A stretch of DNA of 64,000 nt from contig CACMFN010000007.1 in the NCBI GenBank assembly GCA_902612965.1, positions 26,506-90,505 on the forward strand, read 5' to 3'. A program made the translations under genes and the position numbers. Positions 33,761-58,105 of this stretch are shown piece after piece; the stretch's first letter is position 1; every line of letters starts with the position of its first letter. The notes under the pieces were generated by a model. That model saw nothing but the letters and a program-made list of their open reading frames with translations. It made no database searches and was not told the origin of the DNA. Origin of the DNA: an uncultured SAR116 cluster alpha proteobacterium (GTDB taxonomy: Bacteria; Pseudomonadota; Alphaproteobacteria; Puniceispirillales; GCA-002684695).

Positions 33761-35146
33761 TTATTTATAAATTTCTAGGTTTTTTAATTTTCTATGCAAA
33801 GCTGATCGTTCCATTTGTATAAATGATGAAGTTCGTGATACATTACCTGAAAATCTATCTATTTGAGCAGACAAATACTCTTTTTCAAATTTTTCCCTAG
33901 CTTCTTTTAAATTAAAAGATAAATAGTCATTTATAGAACTTAATTGTTTTTCTTTCGGCACAAAGTTAATTTCTGGAGGAAGCATCTCTGATGTAATTAT
34001 CCCATTACCATTATTTGGGGCCATTATTAATAACCAGTCAATTATATTTCTTAATTCGTTTAAGTTACCTGGCCAATCATATTGTTGCAAACATGCAAGT
34101 GCATCATCACTTAAAGTTCTAACTGGCTTGTTTAAAGTAGCTGCAGATGAAGACATATAATATTTTACAAGATCAGGAATGTCTTGAGAATGATTTTTTA
34201 AATCAGGCATCTCGATTGGAACTACTCCCAGCCTATAATATAAATCTTCTCTAAGCAAACCTTGTTCAATCTGTTCTTTAATATTTTTGGACGAAGATGA
34301 AATAACTCTAACATCTACACTCAATTCAAAATTACCACCAATACGTTTAAATCTCTGTTGTTGGATTGCATAAATTATTTTTCCTTGTAATTCAAGAGAC
34401 AGATCACAAATCTCATCAAAATATAAAGTACCCCTATTCGATTTTTCAAACAAACCTAAACGTCTTTTATTATTATCTAATCTAAACTCTTTTCCAAAGA
34501 GTTCTTCTTCAGTTACCATTGAACAGTTAACATGAACAAAACTTGAATTTCTTCTTGGAGATTCTTGATGAATTGTTCGTGCACAAGCTTCTTTACCTGA
34601 TCCAGATGATCCCAATATTAGGACCCTACTATTTGTTTGAGACACTTTTGCTATTGTCTGCCTAACTGAATTTATAATTGAAGATTTTCCAACAATCATA
34701 TCTGTTCTTCTGACTTGTTGCTTTAACTCTTCATTTTCTTTTTTTAATTCTGAGTTTTCTAAAGCACGTGAAACCATGAATAATAGTTTTTCAGACTTAA
34801 ACGGCTTTTCTATGAAATCATAGGCACCAGCTTTAATAGCATTTACAGCAATTTCAACAGTTCCATGCCCTGAGATCATCAATACAGGTATTTCTGGGTT
34901 ACTATCTTTAATCCAATTTAAAAGTGAAAGGCCATCCATTGTACTATCACGCATCCATATATCTAGTATAATCAACGAAGGTATTTCAATATTTATTTTT
35001 GCTTGAGCTTCCTGAGCATTTGACACACAGTCAGTATTATACCCCTCATCATTTAATATAACTGATATTACATCTCTAATATCAGGTTCATCATCAACAA
35101 TAAGTATATTTTGTTTCATCAAATCAATCTCATATAGGAAATTCAA
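33761..35146 (-). CDS. ntrX: Two-component response regulator NtrX (receiver-AAA+-HTH)
   Basis: 461 aa. ILIVDDEPDIRD receiver, GSSGSGKE Walker A, YFDEI Walker B and WPGNLNELRN. No GAFTGA loop, as I recall being reported for NtrX. The start could instead be MKQNILIV at 35119. Confidence 0.88.
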   Translation of the reverse strand: MNFLYEIDLMKQNILIVDDEPDIRDVISVILNDEGYNTDCVSNAQEAQAKINIEIPSLIILDIWMRDSTMDGLSLLNWIKDSNPEIPVLMISGHGTVEIAVNAIKAGAYDFIEKPFKSEKLLFMVSRALENSELKKENEELKQQVRRTDMIVGKSSIINSVRQTIAKVSQTNSRVLILGSSGSGKEACARTIHQESPRRNSSFVHVNCSMVTEEELFGKEFRLDNNKRRLGLFEKSNRGTLYFDEICDLSLELQGKIIYAIQQQRFKRIGGNFELSVDVRVISSSSKNIKEQIEQGLLREDLYYRLGVVPIEMPDLKNHSQDIPDLVKYYMSSSAATLNKPVRTLSDDALACLQQYDWPGNLNELRNIIDWLLIMAPNNGNGIITSEMLPPEINFVPKEKQLSSINDYLSFNLKEAREKFEKEYLSAQIDRFSGNVSRTSSFIQMERSALHRKLKNLEIYK

Positions 35147-37292
35147 TTATTATTTTTGCTCCACCGAGTTTTGAATCTTCTAAAATAAGTTTACCATTAT
35201 GCTCTTCTATTATTCTACTAACAATTGATAGCCCCAGTCCTGTACCTTTATCTCTTAATGTAACATATGGGTTAGTTAAACTTTCCCTATTTTTTGGAAA
35301 ACCTGGTCCATTATCTTCAATTATTAGCAAAACTTTAGCTTTTTTCAATTCTGTTAGAACTTTTATCAAACCTGTATTATTAGATGGGCTTTCATTAATA
35401 GAATCAACTGAATTTTGAAAAATATTTGTTAAAGCTTGTCTTAGTTGTTGTGCGTCAATCATCATTTTATAATCTTTAGGCAGATTATTTATGTAAGACC
35501 ATTCAATATTTTTATTAACTGTTTTAAATAAAGATAATTGTGTTGAAACTACTTTATTTAAATCACCTGAGTAGAGATTAACTTTAGGCATTCTTGCAAA
35601 AGAACTAAACTCATTTACTAAATTTTTTATATCATCAACTTGCCTTTGTATTGTTTCTAAATAGTTATTAAAAGACTTTAACTCAGAATCATTTTTTGGT
35701 TTAAATTTATTGTATATTCTCTCTACTGAAAGTTGGAGAGGAGTTAATGGATTTCTAATTTCATGGGCAATTCTTTGTGCAATATCTGACCAAGCAGCTT
35801 TTTTTTGAGCGGAAAGCAATTCTGTTATATCGTCAAAAGTTATTACATATCCAGAAATCTTCCCTTCAATAATTTCAGAAGATATTCTTGAGAAAAAAGT
35901 ACGAACCTCGCCATTTATTTTAATTTTTATTTGGCCTTCATTACTATTTAATTTTCTACTTTCTATTTTTGAGAATAAGTTTGCAAAATCAGGAAATAAC
36001 TTTATAAAGTTACTTCCATAAAATTTATCTTCAGTAATGTTTAATAGTTGAAGTGCCTTTGAATTAGGTAAATTTACTGTACCATTTGAATCTAATCCAA
36101 TTACACCCGATGAAACCCCAGATAAAATAGCTTCTGTAAATTCTCTTCTTTGATTAATTTGATAATTAGCTGAAATCAACTCTTTTTTATTTCTTGATAT
36201 TTCATCTAACATTTTATTAAAACTTAGTCCTAATCTAGAAATCTCTTCTATTCCTAAATTACTCTTAACTCTTACATCTAAATTTCCTGATCGTGCAATA
36301 TTAGCAACACTAATCACTGAACTCAATGGCTTTATAATCGAATTTGCAAGTATTAATCCCACCCAAAGAGCTAATAATAATAAAAATAAAGCGACTAGAA
36401 AAAAAAGAGCGCCAAATGAAATTTGTAAATTAGTACTCTCTATGTTTAAAAATTGATATTGATCAGACGCTAATTTTGTTCTATCTATAGCTGCTAAAAC
36501 TGATGGTTCCAAAAATCTTCCCGCATAAAGATAAACATCAACTAATCTATTTATTTTAACCAAACCTCTTATTTTATTATTGCTATCAGATCTTAAAATA
36601 ATTAAGTCACCATTTTGTGCTTGATTAAAAATTTGATCATCTAAATCATTTAGAGCAATAGAAAAAGCAAATTGTGACCTCGCTAAAACCATTTTTGAAC
36701 TATTTAGCAAGATTGCTTCAGATAAATTTCTAATTGCTGCTTGTGTAGAAAGATAATTATCTAAAGTATTTGGATTTGAAACAAGTTTTGGAGCTTCTCT
36801 GTTTATATCATTTACCATCTCTAGTATTGAGCCCCTTACACTTCTTGTATGTTCACTTAAATAATCTTCTGCCACCTTTACTGATTCATTAACCGCTGTA
36901 GAAATTCTATCTGAAAACCACCCTCTAAAACTGTAATCAACAATAAAATATCCAAATGTCGCTAAAATTATTGATGGTAAAATTGATATTCCACCAAACA
37001 AAATTGCAATTCGCCAATGCAATTCTGAACCAGCATTATTTTTATTATGATCAACAATAATTTTATTTATTTGATAAGCAACTAGGATCGAAAGGACAAT
37101 CAGTCCAATTGCAAAAAGAATTACCAATATAAAAAAAATTATTTCAGTTTCTGAATTGAAAAATAATTGTATTGGTATTAAAAAGAGAGATAATGTGAAA
37201 ACTATAGAAACAACAATAAATATTGACAAAACAACCCTAAACTGAGACGCAAATTTATTATTAAAATTCAAAAATCTCCTAAAAAATTTCAA
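35130..37292 (-). CDS. ntrY: Sensor histidine kinase NtrY
   Basis: 720 aa. N-terminal TM segments, HAMP, PAS, H-box IAHEIRNPLTPLQLS and the HATPase G-boxes. Confidence 0.9.
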   Translation of the reverse strand: MKFFRRFLNFNNKFASQFRVVLSIFIVVSIVFTLSLFLIPIQLFFNSETEIIFFILVILFAIGLIVLSILVAYQINKIIVDHNKNNAGSELHWRIAILFGGISILPSIILATFGYFIVDYSFRGWFSDRISTAVNESVKVAEDYLSEHTRSVRGSILEMVNDINREAPKLVSNPNTLDNYLSTQAAIRNLSEAILLNSSKMVLARSQFAFSIALNDLDDQIFNQAQNGDLIILRSDSNNKIRGLVKINRLVDVYLYAGRFLEPSVLAAIDRTKLASDQYQFLNIESTNLQISFGALFFLVALFLLLLALWVGLILANSIIKPLSSVISVANIARSGNLDVRVKSNLGIEEISRLGLSFNKMLDEISRNKKELISANYQINQRREFTEAILSGVSSGVIGLDSNGTVNLPNSKALQLLNITEDKFYGSNFIKLFPDFANLFSKIESRKLNSNEGQIKIKINGEVRTFFSRISSEIIEGKISGYVITFDDITELLSAQKKAAWSDIAQRIAHEIRNPLTPLQLSVERIYNKFKPKNDSELKSFNNYLETIQRQVDDIKNLVNEFSSFARMPKVNLYSGDLNKVVSTQLSLFKTVNKNIEWSYINNLPKDYKMMIDAQQLRQALTNIFQNSVDSINESPSNNTGLIKVLTELKKAKVLLIIEDNGPGFPKNRESLTNPYVTLRDKGTGLGLSIVSRIIEEHNGKLILEDSKLGGAKIIIEFPI

Positions 37293-38701
37293 CTTTTTAC
37301 TTTCTTTATTATTTCAATATCAAGTTCATTAATTTTTTTTCTAAGAGTATTCCTATTTAAACCTAATAGCCTAGAGGCTTTGATTTGATTACCATTTACA
37401 ACCGAAAGTGTTTTTCTAATAAGACTATGTTCAAGCTTTCTTAAAAGAAAATTATATAAACAGTCAGAATACCTTGAAATATCTGCATTTTTAAAAAAAT
37501 TTTCTAATTCTAAATCAAATATTTCTGAAAAATTACTAAAATCATTATTTAACTGTTCTTTTACTTTATCCAGTTCACTTTTAACAAACTTTTCATTTAT
37601 TAATTTTCCTGGTGATAAAATCACTAGCCTATTAATAAAAGTTTCAAGTTCTTTTACATTACCAGGCCAACTATAATTTTCTAATTCTTTAGAAGCATAA
37701 TTATTCATAGATTTTATTGGCAAATTTTTAATTTGATTTAAATTTAAAAAGTTATCAACTAAATCCTTTATATCCTCTTTTCTCTCTCTTAATGGTGGAA
37801 TATTCAAAGGTATGATATTTAAATAATAAAACAAATCTTCTCTAAATTCTCCTTTTTCGATTAATTTTATTAGATTTTCACTTGATGAAATAATAAATCT
37901 TACATTTTTAATATTCTCATTTTCAATTTTTGAGAAAGTATTTCTAAGCAAGTTAAGCAAATGTGCCTGAAAACTTAAACTTATTTCGTTTATATTATCT
38001 AAATATATCGTTGAATTTTCAAATAATAGATTAGAAATTTTCTTTTGAATTGTTTTACTATTGTCCATGCTTAGATTAATTTTAAAAAAATTTTTGTTTT
38101 GATTACTTAAATCATGAACAGTTTTGGCAATAAGATCTTTCCCAGTGCCAGATTCACCAGTTAATAAAACTGTCAAATTATGTCCTATAAGTTTAGATAT
38201 TGCATGAAAAATATTAAGCATTGGTTCGCTTTTACCAATTAAATTTTTGTTAAAGTCTTTATTTTCACTATTTTTTAGTTTCTTTTTATTAACACTTAAT
38301 TCATCAAAAGCATTTTCAGTTACTTGAAGTACTTTGTTTATGTCAAAAGGCTTTGAAATAAATTCAAAAGCTCCGTGTCTTACTGCTTTTACTGCTGTTG
38401 AAAGAGTTGAAAAGGCACTGATTACAATAATTGGTAAATTTGGATACTTTTTTTTAATATCAGGAATCTCATTAAAAAAATTCCCATCAGGAAGCTTTAC
38501 ATCACTTATTATTAAATCTGGAGAAAAGTTATTTATTAAGCGATGAAGCCCAGCAAGATTTCCTGTTGTTTCTACTTGATAATTACTTTTTGCAAATAAA
38601 GTTTTTAAAATAAATCTAATATTCTTATCATCGTCCACAATTATAATAAACTTTTTATTATGATTTCTTTTATAAGCTTTTGAGAAAGTATAATCTTGCA
38701 T
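37289..38701 (-). CDS. ntrC: NtrC-type response regulator with a degenerate AAA+ core
   Basis: 470 aa. Receiver (IIIVDDD...IISDVKLPDG), Walker A GESGTGKD, WPGNVKELE and a C-terminal Fis-type HTH. The GAFTGA region is absent, Walker B reads LDNI, and the R-finger position reads FREDLFYYL. Confidence 0.85.
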   Translation of the reverse strand: MQDYTFSKAYKRNHNKKFIIIVDDDKNIRFILKTLFAKSNYQVETTGNLAGLHRLINNFSPDLIISDVKLPDGNFFNEIPDIKKKYPNLPIIVISAFSTLSTAVKAVRHGAFEFISKPFDINKVLQVTENAFDELSVNKKKLKNSENKDFNKNLIGKSEPMLNIFHAISKLIGHNLTVLLTGESGTGKDLIAKTVHDLSNQNKNFFKINLSMDNSKTIQKKISNLLFENSTIYLDNINEISLSFQAHLLNLLRNTFSKIENENIKNVRFIISSSENLIKLIEKGEFREDLFYYLNIIPLNIPPLRERKEDIKDLVDNFLNLNQIKNLPIKSMNNYASKELENYSWPGNVKELETFINRLVILSPGKLINEKFVKSELDKVKEQLNNDFSNFSEIFDLELENFFKNADISRYSDCLYNFLLRKLEHSLIRKTLSVVNGNQIKASRLLGLNRNTLRKKINELDIEIIKKVKS

Positions 38702-38702
38702 A

Positions 38703-39776
38703 TTAACTATTAAAGGGAAAACTAAGTCTAAAAGTTGTTTTATTATTTTTATCTAAGTATTCTACTTTTCCTTGATGTAACTTCATTGTTGCTTGTACCT
38801 GTGTTAAGCCCAAACCAGATCCATTGTTTTTACCTGAAACAAATGGATTAAATAAAATATCTTTTAAATGGTCTGGTACACCTTCTCCATTATCAGAAAT
38901 TTCTACAATAATAGGTGTAACCTTATTTTCATTTCCTAGATACTTTGCCTTTGGAGCCCATAAAGAATAAGTAGTATAGATATAAATTTTACCCCTTACA
39001 TTATTATTAATTGCTTCTGAAGAATTTTTAAAAAGATTTATAAATAATTGTATAAGTGTATCCTTATCACCAAATATATATGGTAAAGATGGGTCAAATT
39101 CTTTTATAAAATTTATATCTTCGCCAAAACTAATTTTTGAAATTTTAATTGATTGATCTAGTATCTCATGGATATTTAGCTTTTCAAGCTCAGGGATCTC
39201 ATTTGAAAATAAATACTCAATTTTATTTAATATTTTATCTATTCTGTCACTTTCATGAATGATTATATCAGTAAACTCCTTTTTATCTTCTTTCATGTCA
39301 TTCGAAAGCAGTTGTGCAGAACCCTTAATTGCTGAAAGAGGATTTTTAATTTCATGAGCTAACATTTTAGTCAATTTAGAAAAACCATTTGTATCTTGGG
39401 TATCAAGGATTTCTTTATTTTGGATAAAAGTATTTTTAGATAGTAAAACTAAATAATATTCAAGATTTTCATCATAAATTGAAACATAAATATCATTATT
39501 TGGAGAGAAAAAATTAAATCCTGTTAAATTTATTTTTTCAATTGAGATTGGATTCTTTTCTTTTTTAACTCTTTTGATAGTATCAACTAACAAATTATCT
39601 TGATTAAAAATATTTTCTATATTTTTTAAACTTAATCTATCATCAAAATTTAATTCTTCTTTGGCCGATAGATTTGCATATAAAATTTTTAGATTTTTAT
39701 CAATTATTAGAATAGATACAGGTAATGAATTAAAAATATTTTCAAAGTTTAATTTGTCTAAATGGTTAATAATCAT
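38703..39776 (-). CDS. ntrB: Sensor histidine kinase NtrB
   Basis: 357 aa. PAS-like N-terminus, H-box LAHEIKNPLSAIKGSAQLL and the HATPase motif GSGLGL. Confidence 0.88.
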   Translation of the reverse strand: MIINHLDKLNFENIFNSLPVSILIIDKNLKILYANLSAKEELNFDDRLSLKNIENIFNQDNLLVDTIKRVKKEKNPISIEKINLTGFNFFSPNNDIYVSIYDENLEYYLVLLSKNTFIQNKEILDTQDTNGFSKLTKMLAHEIKNPLSAIKGSAQLLSNDMKEDKKEFTDIIIHESDRIDKILNKIEYLFSNEIPELEKLNIHEILDQSIKISKISFGEDINFIKEFDPSLPYIFGDKDTLIQLFINLFKNSSEAINNNVRGKIYIYTTYSLWAPKAKYLGNENKVTPIIVEISDNGEGVPDHLKDILFNPFVSGKNNGSGLGLTQVQATMKLHQGKVEYLDKNNKTTFRLSFPFNS

Positions 39777-43833: not shown

Positions 43834-45099
43834 CTATAATAACATTAATGATGGGTTCTCTATGAAATCTTTGAATTTGTTTAACCATTGAGCCCCTAAT
43901 GCACCATCAACGGCACGGTGATCACAGGATAATGTTACAGTCATTAAATTTGATATTGTAATTTCGTTTTTACTTACAATTGCTCTTGGCTCTGCTTTTC
44001 CTACAGCTAGTATCATGCTTTGTGGAGGATTGATTATTGCATTAAAATTTTTAATACCATACATTCCTAGATTAGATACTGTGAAATTACCACCACTATA
44101 TTCTTCAGGAGATAATTCACCTTTTTTTGCTTTTGATGCTAATAATTTTACTTCGCTAGAAATTTCTTCAATTCCTTTGATAGATACATTTTTAACAATT
44201 GGGGTTATCAAACCATCCTCTACTGCAACTGCTACAGATATATCATAAGAATTATAATATCTTATAAAATCGTTGTTCCAACTGCAGTTAGCCTTAGGAA
44301 ATTTTTTTAATGCTAAAGCTGATGCTTTTATAATAAAATCATTAACTGAAACTTTTGTGTCACCTTTATTAACATTTTCCCTAATCTTATTAATCTCAGA
44401 AATATCGCAATCTACAGATAGGAAAAAGTGTGGTGCTTCACTTGCAGATTTTACTAATCTCTCTGCAATTGTTTTTCTCATTGGACTATGAATGACGTCT
44501 TTATATGAGGTGTCAGATGAGCTTTTATGATAACTATCAATGGAAGTAATATTTTTATTAGATATAATAAAATCTTCTATATCTTTTTTTACAATTCTTC
44601 CGTGTGGACCCGTACCTGAGAGACTAGAAAAATTAACATTGTTTTTTAGAGCAATTCTTTTGGCAAGTGGGGAGATTTTTATTCTTTCATCTTTTGTAAT
44701 ATTTTCTTTTAAATTCATATTTTTTTCATTAAAATTTATATCATGTATTGCTTTATCAGTTTTAGAATTAATTTCAGGGATTTTCTCTTTATCCATTTCA
44801 AATAAATTGTTATCATTATTTTTTTCAAATAATGAGTTAAGTTGATCTTCGGTATCACTATCTTCTTTAATTAATGCTAAAGTTGACCCAACAGCAACAT
44901 TATCAGTTCCCTCTTCAACAAATATTTCATACAAGACTCCATCATCAACGGCCTCAATTTCCATAGTGGCTTTGTCTGTTTCAATTTCAGCAATGACATC
45001 ACCTGAAACAACTTTTGAGCTTTTTTTAATTAGCCATTTCGACAACTTCCCAGCTTTCATAGTAGGAGAAAGAGCTGGCATTTTTATTTGAGCAACCAT
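43834..45099 (-). CDS. pdhC: Pyruvate dehydrogenase E2, dihydrolipoamide acetyltransferase
   Basis: 421 aa. Lipoyl domain [10 protein letters not shown], a subunit-binding domain and the catalytic SCDHRAVDGA. Confidence 0.93.
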   Translation of the reverse strand: MVAQIKMPALSPTMKAGKLSKWLIKKSSKVVSGDVIAEIETDKATMEIEAVDDGVLYEIFVEEGTDNVAVGSTLALIKEDSDTEDQLNSLFEKNNDNNLFEMDKEKIPEINSKTDKAIHDINFNEKNMNLKENITKDERIKISPLAKRIALKNNVNFSSLSGTGPHGRIVKKDIEDFIISNKNITSIDSYHKSSSDTSYKDVIHSPMRKTIAERLVKSASEAPHFFLSVDCDISEINKIRENVNKGDTKVSVNDFIIKASALALKKFPKANCSWNNDFIRYYNSYDISVAVAVEDGLITPIVKNVSIKGIEEISSEVKLLASKAKKGELSPEEYSGGNFTVSNLGMYGIKNFNAIINPPQSMILAVGKAEPRAIVSKNEITISNLMTVTLSCDHRAVDGALGAQWLNKFKDFIENPSLMLL

Positions 45100-46394
45100 T
45101 AACCTTTTACAATCCTATTTAGTGCAGAAAGAACACCTTCCACAATATCTTTTCCCTGTGGTAATGCTAATTTCTCAAGGTTTTCAGCATAAGGAAGAGG
45201 AACATCCAAACCAGTTACTCTTTTTATTGGAGAGTCAAGCCAATCAAATGCCAGCTCTTGGACTTGTGAAATAATTTCGGAACTAATACCAGCAAATGGA
45301 AAACCCTCTTCACAAACAACTAAATTATTAGTCTTTTTAATACTTTTAATAATTAGATCAGTATCTAGAGGTTTTATTGTTCTCAAATCTATTACTTCGC
45401 AGGAAATATTCTCATTTGATAAAGTTTCAGCAGCTTCAAGTGCTTTACCAACCATTATTGAAAAAGCAACAATAGTAATGTCATTTCCTTCTCTTAAAAT
45501 ATTTGCTTTGCCAATAGGAACAAAATCATCAATTTCATTTACTTCAAACTTTTCACCGTAAAGTAACTCATTTTCCAGAAAGATTACTGGGTTTGGGTCT
45601 CTTATAGAAGATTTTAAAAGTCCTTTTGCATCAGAAGCAGACCACGGTGAAACAACTTTCAATCCAGGACAATGAGCATACCAACTAGCAAAACATTGTG
45701 AATGTTGAGCGGCAACTCTAGATGCTGCCCCATTAGGGCCTCTAAAAACAATAGGGCAACCCATTTGACCACCAGACATATATAATGTTTTTGCAGCAGA
45801 ATTTATTATTTGATCGATAGCCTGCATTGAAAAATTAAAGGTCATAAATTCAATTATCGGTTTCAAACCACCAAATGCTGCGCCTACACCTAAACCTGCA
45901 AAGCCTTGTTCAGTAATGGGTGTGTCGATCACTCTTTTTTCACCAAATTCTTCTAGTAGACCCTGGGTGACCTTATAAGCACCCTGATATTCTGCGACTT
46001 CTTCTCCCATAACAAAAATATTTTGATCTAAACGCATTTCTTCTGCCATGGCATCCCTTAAAGCCTCGCGAACAGTTATTGTATTTTTCGTTAAAATCAA
46101 ATTTTCGTCTTTGTTTGTACTAGGTAGAACACTAATTTTTTCGTCATCATTTTCATCATCATCACCGATTTTTGCAATTACAGTTCCAACCTCTATATTT
46201 TGCTCTCCTTCTTTAAATAAAATTTTATTAACTTTACCATCATCTATACTTTCTAATTCCATAGTTGCTTTATCAGTTTCAATTTCAGCGATAATATCTC
46301 CACTTTTTATATTATCTCCCTCTTTAACCAACCATTTAGCTAAAGTACCTGAAGTCATTGTAGGCGACAAAGCTGGCATTTTTATGTTTGTCAT
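45099..46394 (-). CDS. pdhB: Pyruvate dehydrogenase E1 beta subunit with an N-terminal lipoyl domain
   Basis: 431 aa. N-terminal MPALSPTM...[10 protein letters not shown] lipoyl domain followed by the transketolase-like E1 beta core. Confidence 0.93.
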
Positions 46395-56296: not shown

Positions 56297-57193
56297 TTAT
56301 TGCTTTAATTCTGAAGAGCTTTGAGCGTATATGATCCCAAATAAAATAATAATCCCACCAAAGAATTGTATTGCAGATAAATATTCACCCAATATAAGCC
56401 AAGCAAGAAAAGCGGCTGTAACAGGCTCACTCATTAAAGTGAGGGAAGCAAGCCCTGTTTTTACCTTCCCCAAAGCCCAAGTAATTAATCCAATTCCAAT
56501 AAATTGACTTATAAAAGCCAAGCAGAATACTACTAACCAACCTGAAAAAGAATTTGGCAAAAAAGTTTCATTTGAAAATAAAACTATTACGAGCAAAGTT
56601 ACTGCACTAAAAAAAGTACCTACAAAAAATATAATATAAATATTTAAATTTTTATCTCTTAAAATGCCAGTTGATAATAAATATGCAGCGTAAAAAGCTC
56701 CAGCCAAAATTGACCAAAAGTCACCAAACAAATTTTGAATACTAAATTCTAGAGAATTATAAAGCAATAAAACAGCACCAATAACTGAAGCTGTCAAACC
56801 CACAAAAAATTTTTTTGTTATTTTTGTAGAGAATAAAATGTAACTATAAATCACAACAAATACTGGTGCCATTGAAGCAAATAAAGTCGAGTTTGCTATT
56901 GATGTTAACATTATACCGTGATGCCATGCAGCGTGATCAATACCTAAAAATATTCCTGGTAGAGCAAGATAGAAATAATTTAGCTTATCACTCTTTAATT
57001 CTGTCTTGATATTAATACTTTTGATTAAAATTAGTATAAAAGGAAGGGCCAAAAAAGATCGCCAAAAAGCTGATGAGACAGGGCCTACTTCACTAATTCT
57101 TACAAATAATGGGCTCACTCCTAAGCAAGCAGCTCCTAAAATTAAAGTAAAGGCTACAAACCAGATTGGTGGAGTTTCAATAATCTTTTTCAA
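56297..57193 (-). CDS. EamA/DMT-family transporter
   Basis: 298 aa with 10 hydrophobic segments in two EamA-like halves. Confidence 0.8.
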   Translation of the reverse strand: MKKIIETPPIWFVAFTLILGAACLGVSPLFVRISEVGPVSSAFWRSFLALPFILILIKSINIKTELKSDKLNYFYLALPGIFLGIDHAAWHHGIMLTSIANSTLFASMAPVFVVIYSYILFSTKITKKFFVGLTASVIGAVLLLYNSLEFSIQNLFGDFWSILAGAFYAAYLLSTGILRDKNLNIYIIFFVGTFFSAVTLLVIVLFSNETFLPNSFSGWLVVFCLAFISQFIGIGLITWALGKVKTGLASLTLMSEPVTAAFLAWLILGEYLSAIQFFGGIIILFGIIYAQSSSELKQ

Positions 57194-57305
57194 TTAAAAT
57201 AACACAATTTATATATAATTTTTTTTCTACTAAGTATATATTGATTTATTTTGTAATTAAATTCATATATTAAGCTTTGTTAAATTTAATTTTGAAAGTT
57301 TATTT

Positions 57306-57710
57306 ATGTTTAGTTTATTTATTGGAATAATTTGTATTATCGGATTGGTAATTGGAACTATTTTATCAGTATCAGATTTTGGAATTTTTTTTGATGCTCC
57401 AGCGTTTGGGATTGTTATAGTTGGCGCATTTTTATATTGTATTGCTGCTGGTGGAGATGCTGCAGACAGAATTGAAAATTTTGGAATAGGAGCAGTTAGA
57501 TTTGGATGGTTGGGTTTCTTTATAGGGATCATAATTATGTCAGCAAGTAATATTATCATTTCATTAGATAATATTGGATCAGCACTTGCTGTAGCTCTTT
57601 TAACTCCTTTTTATGGATATTTTATAAAGATTTTAACAAATGTTATTGTATACAGAATGGATTACAATAAATTAATTGAAGAGCTTAATGAGGAAAAATT
57701 AGAGAATTAA
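57306..57710 (+). CDS. Minimal 4-TM MotA/PomA/ExbB-like (stator A-subunit-like) membrane protein
   Basis: 134 aa. The N-terminal GxxGxFFDxPAFGIVIVG pattern and C-terminal IGSALAVALLTPFYGYF align by eye with the TM1-2 and TM3-4 regions of PomA/MotA (compare AMAVALLTTLYG). There is no long cytoplasmic loop. The antisense ORF 57263..57559 is rejected. Confidence 0.5.
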   Translation: MFSLFIGIICIIGLVIGTILSVSDFGIFFDAPAFGIVIVGAFLYCIAAGGDAADRIENFGIGAVRFGWLGFFIGIIIMSASNIIISLDNIGSALAVALLTPFYGYFIKILTNVIVYRMDYNKLIEELNEEKLEN

Positions 57711-57714
57711 AAAT

Positions 57715-57743
57715 ATAAGTGATCACTAATAGTGATCACTTAT
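57715..57743. terminator. Bidirectional rho-independent-type terminator hairpin between convergent genes
   Basis: Perfect 13-bp stem ATAAGTGATCACT / AGTGATCACTTAT with loop AAT. Flanked by an A-run upstream and a T-rich run downstream. Each arm contains the palindrome GTGATCAC. Confidence 0.7.
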
Positions 57744-57748
57744 TTAAT

Positions 57749-58105
57749 TTATCCATAAATATTTGTTAATTGAATAACAGCATTAATTAAGAATAACGCA
57801 GCAAAACCTAATCCCAATCTATCAACTGGTATGTCTTTAGTTTCCTTACCAAAGTTTGTTTTTGCTAATTTATCGTCCATCTCTAAAAGCAATAGTTTAA
57901 AGTTCTTTGTAAGTCTTATTAGACCAAAAGAGCCTATTAATGTAATCGCCACTATTGTACCTGCAACAACAAGCTCCTTTCCACCTAAATCACCAAATAT
58001 AATTGTCATTGTCATTGTAATATGTGTAACTGATAAGATAGAAAGAACTATCATCATATAATAGAAAGTATTAATTTGAAGTGTTTGTCTTTGATTTGGA
58101 TCCAT
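57749..58105 (-). CDS. Hypothetical three-TM membrane protein
   Basis: 118 aa. Three hydrophobic segments separated by GDLGGKE and a charged amphipathic linker. I recognised no family. Confidence 0.5.
   Translation of the reverse strand: MDPNQRQTLQINTFYYMMIVLSILSVTHITMTMTIIFGDLGGKELVVAGTIVAITLIGSFGLIRLTKNFKLLLLEMDDKLAKTNFGKETKDIPVDRLGLGFAALFLINAVIQLTNIYG

What the first reader, a model, noticed from the sequence alone, without database searches (positions are those of the whole stretch)
57306..57710. Orphan, loop-less MotA/PomA-like 4-TM protein
The 134-aa product has four TM helices whose sequence tracks the channel-forming helices of flagellar and Ton/Tol stator A subunits. TM1-2 read IGLVIGTILSVSDFGIFFDAPAFGIVIVGAF, matching the MotA/PomA pattern G..G.F.D.....IV.GG. 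TM3-4 read LGFFIGIIIMSASN...IGSALAVALLTPFYGYF, compared with PomA as I recall it, MGMIGTLVGLVAMLSN...IGPAMAVALLTTLYGAI.

The roughly 100-residue cytoplasmic loop that contacts the rotor or partner is missing, as is the C-terminal tail. No MotB/ExbD/TolR-type partner gene is adjacent. The gene is monocistronic, divergent from an EamA transporter, and ends at its own perfect hairpin. A minimal 5:2-motor-type A subunit with no linked B subunit, in what is presumably a non-flagellated streamlined genome, does not match any described system I know.
Basis: partly seen in the sequence, partly recalled or inferred. Interest (0 to 1): 0.6.

Follow-up and report, generated by a model that had tools for sequence, protein, structure and literature searches.

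The report
Loop-less orphan MotA/PomA-like membrane protein
This conserved 134-residue gene encodes only the four membrane helices of a flagellar-motor stator protein (MotA/PomA), with no rotor-contacting domain, no partner gene and no ion-coupling residues, and it belongs to an unannotated family found so far in marine bacteria whose job is unknown.

Summary
ORF 57306..57710 (+) encodes a 134-aa four-helix membrane protein. It is truly homologous to flagellar-type stator A subunits: hhalign against canonical PomA/MotA-like sequences gives 99% probability, E 9e-18, and Foldseek's best hits are PomA and MotA. TM1-2 and TM3-4 both align. About 87 residues of cytoplasmic loop and the C-terminal domain are absent.

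It is not a decayed fragment. dN/dS is 0.09-0.20, and it belongs to a family of about 110-135-aa proteins with no Pfam or NCBIfam assignment. That family splits from canonical MotA as one group (37/40 bootstraps).

No MotB/ExbD/TolR-type gene is adjacent in the window or in 12 subclades with differing neighbours.

The '5:2 motor A subunit' reading is weakened by residues. The TM3 glycine zipper is kept. The conserved TM3 proline is never present (0/78), and the threonines that contact the B-subunit aspartate are lost or shifted. Bulky Trp and Tyr replace small residues.

My best reading is a MotA-derived ring-forming membrane protein that is not a torque generator and probably not a canonical ion-coupled motor. 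Its mechanism is unresolved. It is a new variant of a known kind, of moderate interest.

The parts
57306..57710 (+). CDS of the 134-aa loop-less MotA/PomA-like protein (stop codon included)
   Evidence: ORF listed. hhalign to canonical PomA/MotA gives 99%, E 9e-18. AF2 pLDDT is 93.7. Foldseek best hits are PomA and MotA. dN/dS is 0.09-0.20.
57309..57449 (+). TM1 (res 2-22), short periplasmic turn carrying the F-x-D-x-P motif (F28, D30, P32), and TM2 (res 31-48). Corresponds to MotA/PomA TM1-TM2 (the Pfam MotA_N region).
   Evidence: Helices from the AF2 model. Aligned to PomA-like residues 4-50. In the family F28 is F in 50/78, D30 is D or N in 72/78, and V37 is V in 76/78.
57450..57458 (+). 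[quoted passage not shown]
   Evidence: AF2 helices end at residue 48 and restart at residue 52. hhalign shows the template columns of the cytoplasmic loop as one long gap between TM2 and TM3.
57459..57545 (+). TM3 helix (res 52-80), continuous in the model. Carries the family signature FGxGAV(R)xGWxGxxIG, including the glycine zipper G67-G70-G74 (57504-57527). V64 stands where MotA/PomA/ExbB/TolQ have the conserved proline. F71 stands where they have the TM3 threonine.
   Evidence: Alignment to PomA 143-162. Column statistics over 78 family members. Roles of PomA P151, G154-G161 and T158 from PMC10374538.
57564..57704 (+). TM4 plus an acidic cytoplasmic tail as one long helix (res 87-133). 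The motif LLTPFYGY (57597-57620) aligns with PomA LLTTLYGA. There is no TM4 proline and no C-terminal domain.
   Evidence: AF2 helix 87-133. Alignment to PomA 175-196. T100 aligns with T185 (T in 45/78). P101 aligns with T186 (T in 0/78). Y105 aligns with A190 (Y in 62/78).
57715..57743 (.). Perfect 13-bp hairpin between the convergent stop codons. Likely a bidirectional intrinsic terminator.
   Evidence: The terminator scan finds it on both strands. RNA fold gives -16.2 kcal/mol and z -7.4. Stem potential is kept by compensatory changes in L002 and by a different stem sequence in L003.
57194..57305 (.). 112-nt AT-rich divergent intergenic region shared with the EamA gene. Presumed promoter region.
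   Evidence: Coordinates. No sigma-70 consensus match was found on the + strand here, so the promoter is inferred, not shown.
57749..58105 (-). Neighbouring 118-aa three-helix membrane protein of unknown family. Adjacent to the mini-MotA gene throughout this alphaproteobacterial clade, but probably not an obligate partner.
   Evidence: Adjacent in 16 loci: convergent in 11, and same-strand with a 22-nt gap in 5. The two lineages are 34% identical, E 5e-25. Homologs at 64% and 45% identity lie in L092 and L093 without a mini-MotA. No Pfam, NCBIfam or PADLOC hit. AF2 pLDDT is 76 and there is no fold match.

Best explanation
Shown: this is a real gene under purifying selection. It encodes only the four-helix transmembrane core of a flagellar-type stator A subunit (MotA/PomA). 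The rotor-contacting cytoplasmic loop and the C-terminal domain are deleted. It belongs to an old, coherent and so far unannotated family of about 110-135-aa proteins. Within the sequences sampled here the family appears only in marine samples, and no member sampled has a B-subunit (MotB/ExbD/TolR-type) gene next to it.

Inferred:
1. The packing motifs of the inner TM3/TM4 layer are kept (the glycine zipper GxxGxxxG and A93/L99/Y103/G104). The protein therefore most likely still assembles into a MotA-like ring in the inner membrane.
2. It has no rotor interface, so it cannot act as a torque-generating stator.
3. It has also lost the TM3 proline and the TM3/TM4 threonine pair that hold and hand over the ion at the B-subunit aspartate. 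It has gained bulky Trp68 and Tyr105 at positions where PomA has Met155 and Ala190, and Ala190 lies at the site of the PomB aspartate. It is therefore probably not a canonical ion-driven 5:2 motor wrapped around a MotB/ExbD-like axle.
4. The most likely mode of action is a partner-independent, or unconventionally partnered, homo-oligomeric ring that serves as a small channel or membrane scaffold.

Step 4 is conjecture.
For: Homology and architecture:
- NCBIfam PomA E 6.6e-9.
- PDB profile hits to PomA and MotA only.
- hhalign 99%, E 9e-18, with TM1-2 and TM3-4 aligned and the loop as one gap.
- AF2 pLDDT 93.7 with four helices.
- Foldseek best hits PomA and MotA, with TolQ/ExbB further down.

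Functional gene:
- dN/dS 0.09-0.20.
- 114 close homologs.
- 276 cluster representatives at E<=1e-3; of the 143 listed whose sequences were retrieved, 89 are 100-145 aa.

Coherent family:
- The split between canonical and loop-less sequences has 37/40 bootstrap support.

Orphan status:
- 12 subclades with unrelated neighbours, none with an OmpA/MotB/ExbD domain.
- phmmer probes found nothing.

Residue pattern:
- Kept: G67 74/78, G70 68/78, G74 76/78, Y103 73/78, G104 68/78.
- Changed: P151 equivalent is Pro in 0/78; T186 equivalent is Thr in 0/78; T158 equivalent is mostly Phe or Leu; W68 70/78; Y105 62/78.

The roles of these positions come from PMC10374538 and PMC12583513.
Against: - No oligomer was modelled or measured. 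Ring formation is inferred from homology alone.
- T100, which aligns with PomA T185, is kept in 45/78 members. With Y105 it could still provide a polar site for an unrecognised partner.
- A B-type partner encoded elsewhere in the genome cannot be excluded, because only 64 kb and short metagenomic contigs were available.
- B subunits are hard to detect by sequence (PMC12505986).
- No expression or phenotype data exist.
- That Trp68 and Tyr105 fill the axle space is a conjecture from alignment positions, not from a structure of the complex.
Confidence: 0.5

Rival explanations
1. It is a minimal but working A subunit of a 5:2 ion-driven motor. Five copies rotate around a dimer of a B-type protein encoded elsewhere (TolR, ExbD, MotB or a novel one), and the work is done on the periplasmic side by that partner.
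For: - The fold and the inner-layer packing motifs of MotA/PomA are conserved.
- T100, aligned with PomA T185, is kept in 45/78 members.
- The family is under purifying selection.
- In Ton, Tol and Gld systems the output is periplasmic, so a cytoplasmic domain is not obviously needed (PMC9389320).
- B subunits are notoriously hard to find by sequence (PMC12505986).
Against: - A and B genes are 'typically adjacent' across both flagellar and generic groups (PMC12505986). Here no subclade has a B-like neighbour.
- The TM3 proline and the Thr pair that contact the B aspartate in PomA, MotA, TolQ and ExbB are absent.
- Bulky W68 and Y105 replace PomA M155 and A190, the latter at the engaged-aspartate site.
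Confidence: 0.25
2. It forms a two-protein membrane complex with the adjacent 118-aa three-helix protein (57749..58105 -), which takes the place of a B subunit in this clade.
For: The two genes stay adjacent in 16 loci of two lineages, despite a local inversion. Five loci have them on the same strand with a 22-nt gap, which looks like an operon. The 118-aa protein has an invariant G-K-E motif at the start of its second helix.
Against: - Homologs of the 118-aa protein at 64% and 45% identity lie in loci without a mini-MotA.
- The other 10 mini-MotA subclades have no such neighbour.
- The whole region is syntenic between the two lineages (EamA, TrpE and PpiD nearby), so adjacency may be inherited gene order.
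- By the positive-inside rule the invariant Glu lies at the periplasmic end of the helix, unlike the B-subunit Asp (inference).
- It has no periplasmic domain, and no fold match was found.
Confidence: 0.1
3. It is a modulator or decoy subunit that mixes into, or caps, the pentamers of the cell's canonical TolQ/ExbB/MotA complexes and tunes their activity.
For: It keeps the subunit-subunit packing motifs and lacks all output and coupling features. It is an orphan gene with varied neighbourhoods.
Against: There is no direct evidence. It is closest to flagellar-type PomA/MotA, not to TolQ/ExbB, and whether the hosts have flagella is unknown. About 30% identity in the TM core makes mixed rings uncertain.
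Confidence: 0.07
4. It is a decayed fragment of a MotA gene, or the similarity is a chance resemblance between hydrophobic helices.
For: Pfam PF01618 is below threshold (E 0.065). TM proteins share compositional bias.
Against: - dN/dS is 0.09-0.20.
- The length of about 110-135 aa is conserved across many divergent members.
- The loop-less group is coherent in the tree.
- hhalign gives E 9e-18 over both helix pairs.
- The top fold hits are specific to PomA/MotA.
Confidence: 0.02

Closest known systems
Flagellar stator A subunits PomA/MotA/MotP (the 'FIT' group, TGI4 type, of PMC12505986; PDB 8brd/8bri, 8ucs, 6ysf, 8gqy)
   Same: - Four TM helices in the same order, with a continuous TM3.
- The F-x-D-x-P turn between TM1 and TM2.
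- The TM3 glycine zipper GxxGxxxG and the TM4 motif A-x-A-V-A-L-L-T-x-x-Y-G.
- These are the best sequence, profile and fold matches.
   Different: - No cytoplasmic torque-generating interface (about 87 residues deleted) and no C-terminal domain.
- The TM3 proline (PomA P151) is replaced by Val.
- T158 and T186 are replaced by Phe and Pro.
- No TM4 proline.
- No adjacent MotB/PomB gene.
- Family-specific W68 and Y105.
ExbB/TolQ/AglR ('GIT' group with condensed cytoplasmic domains CCD2/CCD3, PMC12505986)
   Same: Non-flagellar members of the same superfamily with reduced cytoplasmic domains. They give weaker but recognisable fold matches (TolQ 9k49, ExbB 5sv1).
   Different: - They still have a two- or three-helix cytoplasmic domain, a kinked TM3 and an adjacent B gene.
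- ExbB and TolQ have three TM helices, not four (my own knowledge of these families).
- They keep the Thr polar ring (TolQ T145/T178).
- There is no sequence-level hit from this family's profile to ExbB/TolQ in the PDB, even at E<=10.
Tandem-duplicated short-loop MotA_ExbB proteins found here (P0138, P0162, P0176, P0218, P0227)
   Same: The same helix-pair units with only a short TM2-TM3 loop. The TM3 proline is also lacking. They were recovered by this family's profile.
   Different: - Two units are fused in one chain of 250-385 aa.
- The three scanned (P0138, P0176 and the N-terminally extended P0139) reach the Pfam PF01618 threshold.
- They keep Thr after the zipper in some units.
- They are uncharacterised as well.
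ZorA (Zorya defence) and GldL (gliding/T9SS) 5:2-motor A subunits
   Same: Further examples of MotA-like rings re-used outside flagella (PMC9389320, PMC12505986).
   Different: Both have large cytoplasmic parts and dedicated B partners. PADLOC ZorA gives E 0.17, which is not significant.

Membership tests
MotA/ExbB/TolQ superfamily (Pfam PF01618 MotA_ExbB) | Match to the PF01618 profile at the curated gathering score | tested here: not met
   13.4 bits, E 0.065, against a cut-off of 22.9. Across 20 family members, 7 give weak hits and none reaches the cut-off; the best is 22.6 bits.
MotA/ExbB/TolQ superfamily (Pfam PF01618 MotA_ExbB) | Homology detectable by profile-profile and fold comparison to solved or canonical members | tested here: met
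   hhalign 99%, E 9e-18. PDB profile search gives PomA E 7e-7. Foldseek gives PomA and MotA with probability 1.0 and TMq up to 0.82.
MotA/ExbB/TolQ superfamily (Pfam PF01618 MotA_ExbB) | TM3 glycine zipper GxxGxxxG (PomA G154-G161) | tested here: met
   G67, G70 and G74 are kept in 74, 68 and 76 of 78 family members. The motif is defined in PMC10374538.
MotA/ExbB/TolQ superfamily (Pfam PF01618 MotA_ExbB) | Conserved proline just before the zipper (PomA P151) | tested here: not met
   The window protein has V64. Pro occurs in 0 of 78 loop-less members, against 7 of 7 canonical sequences.
MotA/ExbB/TolQ superfamily (Pfam PF01618 MotA_ExbB) | Threonine pair on the two inner helices that forms the polar ring and contacts the B-subunit aspartate (PomA T158/T186, TolQ T145/T178, CjMotA T155/T189) | tested here: not met
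   The window protein has F71 and P101. Over 78 members the TM3 position is T in 7 and S in 8, and the TM4 position is never T. The neighbouring T100 (aligned with PomA T185) is T in 45/78.
MotA/ExbB/TolQ superfamily (Pfam PF01618 MotA_ExbB) | B-subunit gene (MotB/PomB/ExbD/TolR type) adjacent, usually directly downstream | tested here: not met
   The window neighbours are EamA and a 118-aa three-helix protein. Twelve subclades have other neighbours, none with an OmpA/ExbD/MotB domain. phmmer probes found nothing. The expectation of adjacency comes from PMC12505986.
MotA/ExbB/TolQ superfamily (Pfam PF01618 MotA_ExbB) | A5B2 assembly and ion-driven rotation | not testable with these tools
   Only monomer prediction was available. 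No multimer modelling or experiment was possible.
Flagellar stator A subunit (FIT: MotA/PomA/MotP) | Four-helix 'square fold' TM domain with a continuous TM3 | tested here: met
   AF2 helices 2-22, 31-48, 52-80 and 87-133, with TM3 unbroken. TM1-2 aligns to PomA-like residues 4-50. The feature is defined in PMC12505986.
Flagellar stator A subunit (FIT: MotA/PomA/MotP) | Expanded cytoplasmic domain with a torque-generating interface of 4-5 helices, plus a C-terminal domain | tested here: not met
   The loop is reduced to a turn of a few residues and appears as a gap of about 87 columns in hhalign. The alignment ends at template position 208 of 254, and the query has only a 19-residue acidic tail.
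Flagellar stator A subunit (FIT: MotA/PomA/MotP) | NCBIfam equivalog score (PomA NF006527, MotP NF005237/NF005383) | tested here: not met
   35.4 bits against a cut-off of 341; 21.2 against 373; 18.6 against 394.
Generic ion transporters ExbB/TolQ (GIT, CCD2/CCD3) | Condensed two- or three-helix cytoplasmic domain, kinked TM3, sequence similarity to ExbB/TolQ | tested here: not met
   There is no cytoplasmic domain, and TM3 is continuous in the model. No ExbB/TolQ chain appears among PDB sequence hits at E<=10. Only weak fold hits were found, with TMq 0.42-0.47.

The most novel reading that the evidence does not exclude
The family is a self-sufficient, A-only descendant (or surviving relative) of the stator core. 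In this reading a homo-oligomeric four-helix ring works in the inner membrane of marine bacteria without any axle protein. Trp68 and Tyr105 would line or fill the central cavity, and the ring would act as a new kind of minimal ion channel or membrane rotor. It would show what the MotA transmembrane core can do on its own. It would also bear on how the flagellar stator arose from a simpler ion transporter.
Probability: 0.12. Interest if true: 0.8.

Novelty: new variant of a known kind. Interest (0 to 1): 0.55.

Why it matters
5:2 rotary motors (MotAB, PomAB, ExbBD, TolQR, GldLM, ZorAB) are currently understood as obligate A5B2 pairs. Their A subunit always carries some cytoplasmic domain, and the A and B genes sit together. 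The 2025 survey of 379 MotA homologs sorts them into groups that all have cytoplasmic helices (PMC12505986).

A conserved family that keeps only the four membrane helices falls outside that scheme. It has no linked B gene and lacks the proline and threonine residues used for ion coupling.

- If it still forms a ring, it is a natural 'minimal core' for asking which parts of MotA are needed for assembly and which for ion coupling and torque.
- If it works with a distant partner, it points to an unknown energised process in streamlined marine bacteria.
- It also gives an annotation to a set of metagenomic 'hypothetical proteins'.

Tried and rejected
- Pfam, NCBIfam and PADLOC scans gave no family assignment at curated thresholds for the mini-MotA. 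They gave none at all for the 118-aa neighbour.
- The 118-aa neighbour as a B-subunit substitute. It is adjacent in 16 loci, but homologs occur without a mini-MotA. The family is small and clade-restricted. The model is of only moderate confidence and has no fold match. It is kept only as a low-probability rival.
- A search for any recurrent neighbour across 91 loci found only lineage-specific synteny: DUF1330, a glycerophosphodiester-phosphodiesterase-like gene, a giant repeat protein, ABC1 kinase, rhodanese, HIT, cytochrome b561 and GYD.
This is a low-sensitivity test.
- The first metagenome scan, with the 20-sequence alignment, failed for lack of a conserved stretch. It was repeated with 6 sequences.
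- The look-up of encoding contigs on three window proteins found no record, so the source assembly and taxon could not be read that way.
- Literature searches for orphan or loop-less MotA found no prior description. The held library is incomplete, so this is not proof of absence.
- A search on SAR116 flagellation was inconclusive.
- The hairpin arm motif AGTGATCACT is not a repeated element of the window; it occurs only in the two arms.
Full report
**1. Observation**

ORF 57306..57710 (+) encodes 134 aa.

The gene lies 112 nt from a divergent EamA transporter gene (56297..57193 -, Pfam EamA E 3e-31). It converges on a 118-aa ORF (57749..58105 -), so it is monocistronic by geometry.

Between the two stop codons is a perfect 13-bp hairpin at 57715-57743. 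The terminator scan finds it on both strands. It folds at -16.2 kcal/mol with z -7.4. Relatives keep the stem through compensatory changes, and L003 has a different stem sequence at the same place. The arm motif is not repeated elsewhere in the window.

**2. Is it MotA/PomA-like?**

Single-profile tests are marginal:
- Pfam PF01618 scores 13.4 bits, E 0.065, below the 22.9 cut-off.
- NCBIfam PomA gives E 6.6e-9, but only 35 bits against a cut-off of 341.

Stronger tests are clear:
- A profile of close homologs hits only PomA (E 7e-7) and MotA chains in the PDB. No ExbB or TolQ appears.
- A 20-member family alignment (A2) compared with 7 canonical PomA/MotA-like proteins (A5) gives hhalign probability 99%, E 9e-18. 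TM1-2 aligns to template 4-50 and TM3-4 to about 137-208. The cytoplasmic loop is a single gap of about 87 columns.
- The AF2 model has pLDDT 93.7, pTM 0.83 and helices at 2-22, 31-48, 52-80 and 87-133.
- Its best Foldseek PDB matches are PomA 8brd, MotA 8ucs/6ysf and Aquifex MotA 8gqy (TMq 0.82). TolQ and ExbB come further down.

The 'loop-less MotA/PomA' description is therefore correct. The protein is closer to flagellar-type stators than to ExbB/TolQ.

**3. Real gene and wider family**

The first search returned 114 close homologs of 131-134 aa, all without Pfam domains.

dN/dS against relatives at 96% to 50% amino-acid identity is 0.09-0.34, and 0.09-0.20 for all but the most distant pair.

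An exhaustive profile search of 1.84 billion cluster representatives found 276 at E<=1e-3. Of the 143 listed whose sequences were retrieved, 89 are 100-145 aa. Canonical 250-290-aa MotA/PomA appear only at about 1e-7 with two matched stretches.

These short proteins share the signature F-x-D-x-P ... FGxGAVxxGWxGxxIG ... GPAxAVxxLTxxYGY. None reaches the PF01618 cut-off. The one NCBI name seen is 'hypothetical protein', from a Gammaproteobacteria MAG.

In a neighbour-joining analysis of 112 core columns, 78 loop-less proteins separate from 7 canonical ones by a single split with 37/40 bootstrap support. This is a limited analysis. It does argue against repeated recent truncations.

**4. Surroundings and partner search**

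The window is ordinary chromosome, with GC about 0.30. It carries genes for queuosine synthesis, SUF, Mfd, RecG, HflX, an NtrY histidine kinase with a sigma-54-type response regulator and a second histidine kinase, IspDF, pyruvate dehydrogenase, enolase, PyrG, SecG, TpiA, a PpiD-like protein and TrpE. It has no second MotA-like gene and no Tol, Exb or Mot gene.

The two GTDB species representatives that carry the gene are labelled a SAR116 single-cell genome (AG-333-N20) and a 'Rhodobacterales' MAG. The Pelagibacterales/non-flagellated assumption is therefore unverified.

I collected 91 loci, from the metagenome scan, exact look-ups and GTDB, and called their ORFs. The mini-MotA genes fall into 12 subclades at 60% identity. 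Each subclade has its own neighbours.

Pfam on the same-strand neighbours gives ABC1 kinase, rhodanese, cytochrome b561, GYD, DUF1330 and HIT. There is no OmpA, MotB or ExbD domain. The gene is an orphan across the whole family, not only in this window.

The 118-aa neighbour deserved a closer look.
- It is adjacent in 16 loci of two lineages (34% identical, E 5e-25). In 11 it is convergent, and in 5 it is on the same strand with a 22-nt gap.
- Its family is small, at 29 clusters.
- Homologs at 64% and 45% identity lie in contigs with no mini-MotA.
- The whole region is syntenic between the two lineages.
- Its model has three helices at pLDDT 76 and no fold match.

I treat the linkage as probably inherited gene order and keep 'partner' as a low-probability rival.

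**5. What the residues say**

The roles of PomA residues come from PMC10374538:
- G154-x-x-G157-x-x-x-G161 is a strictly conserved glycine zipper.
- P151 gives main-chain elasticity, and its carbonyl binds Na+ next to PomB D24.
- T158, T185 and T186 form the Na+ site.
- T158 hydrogen-bonds PomB D24.
- A water molecule near A190 completes site 1.

PMC12583513 shows the equivalent Thr pair in TolQ (T145/T178). It forms a polar ring, binds TolR D23, is conserved in ExbB, and corresponds to T155/T189 in C. jejuni MotA.

Mapping through the alignment and counting over 78 loop-less members:

| Position (PomA equivalent) | Loop-less family, of 78 |
|---|---|
| Zipper G67 / G70 / G74 | kept in 74 / 68 / 76 |
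| Y103 / G104 | kept in 73 / 68 |
| V64 (P151) | V 59, I 8, L 7; never Pro |
| F71 (T158) | mostly F or L; T 7, S 8 |
| P101 (T186) | V, P, I or L; never Thr |
| T100 (T185) | T in 45 |
| W68 (M155) | W in 70 |
| Y105 (A190) | Y in 62 |

There is also no TM4 proline. All 7 canonical sequences have P, T, T and T at the four coupling positions.

The packing scaffold is therefore conserved. The ion-coupling chemistry common to PomA, MotA, TolQ and ExbB is not. Bulky aromatic residues sit at two positions where PomA has smaller ones, and one of them (A190) lies at the PomB D24 site.

**6. Mechanism**

Shown: homology, architecture, selection, orphan status and the residue pattern.

Inferred:
- The protein still forms a MotA-like ring, because the packing motifs are kept.
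- It cannot drive a flagellar rotor, because it has no interface for one.
- It probably does not run the canonical aspartate-threonine ion relay around a MotB/ExbD-type axle.

My best guess is a partner-independent, or unconventionally partnered, ring that acts as a small channel or scaffold. This last step is weak.

The main rival is a minimal A subunit with an unlinked B partner. It remains viable for three reasons: T100 is often kept, B subunits are hard to detect, and I could not see whole genomes.

**7. Comparison with what is known**

The 2025 survey of 379 MotA homologs defines flagellar FIT groups (TGI4/TGI5) and generic GIT groups (CCD2/CCD3). All of them have cytoplasmic helices and typically an adjacent B gene.

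This family shares the FIT 'square fold' and continuous TM3. It lacks everything else that defines FIT, and it does not fit GIT either.

I found no description of loop-less MotA in the held literature.

It is a distant, atypical branch of the MotA/ExbB/TolQ superfamily. It should not be filed as a stator A subunit.

**8. Verdict**

The protein is a new variant of a known kind. Interest is 0.55. The finding is real, conserved and undescribed, and it is useful to people working on 5:2 motors. It has no functional handle yet, and the residue evidence makes it less likely to be a working motor.

Noticed in passing
Proteins P0138, P0162, P0176, P0218, P0227 (from; sequences): Relatives in which two short-loop MotA-like four-helix units are fused in one chain of 250-385 aa. 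The three scanned (P0138, P0176 and the N-terminally extended P0139) reach the Pfam PF01618 threshold. Fused pairs are hard to reconcile with an odd, pentameric ring. This suggests that loop-less MotA-like proteins may assemble with other stoichiometries.
   Followed up: partly
Proteins P0139, P0213, P0145, P0148; long ORFs in L028, L034, L039, L060: Some family members carry an N-terminal cytoplasmic extension of about 70 residues. In some it is Lys/Gln-rich and looks like a coiled coil. In others it has an 'LGDLxEEF' type motif. This could be a replacement output domain. For the metagenomic long ORFs the extension may instead be an artefact of taking the longest ORF.
   Followed up: no
L034: 600-1241 and 2259-2888: One metagenomic contig carries two mini-MotA paralogs about 1 kb apart on the same strand, with a GNAT-like acetyltransferase ORF between them (judged by eye from the sequence, cluster 13; not scanned against Pfam).
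   Followed up: no
window 57749..58105 (-): A 118-aa three-helix membrane protein of a small, clade-restricted family (29 clusters). It has invariant F37, G42-K43-E44, F60-G61, R64, N68, M76, G86, P93 and Q112. It has no Pfam, NCBIfam or PADLOC match and no fold match, and its function is unknown.
   Followed up: partly
window 57715-57743: Each arm of the terminator hairpin contains the self-complementary octamer GTGATCAC, which includes a GATC/TGATCA site. Each arm could therefore also pair with itself or with the same arm on the other strand. The motif occurs nowhere else in the window.
   Followed up: yes
window 33761..39776 (-): A run of two-component genes: an NtrY-like histidine kinase (720 aa, Pfam NtrY_N), a sigma-54-type response regulator (461 aa), a second histidine kinase (357 aa), and a 470-aa ORF between them that was not scanned. 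This is more regulatory capacity than I recall for SAR11, which, like the genome labels, points away from Pelagibacterales. The comparison with SAR11 is from my own memory, not tested.
   Followed up: no
window 45099..46394 (-): The pyruvate-dehydrogenase E1-beta-like protein carries an N-terminal biotin/lipoyl domain in front of its transketolase domains. This is a fusion architecture, and it was not examined further.
   Followed up: no
L068: 4185-7064 (-), and homologs in L091, L032 (cluster 5): In one gammaproteobacteria-like subclade the mini-MotA converges on a giant secreted repeat protein of up to 959 aa, with a C-terminal region rich in Gly/Asp repeats of the RTX type (judged by eye; not scanned against Pfam). 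This is probably lineage synteny.
   Followed up: no
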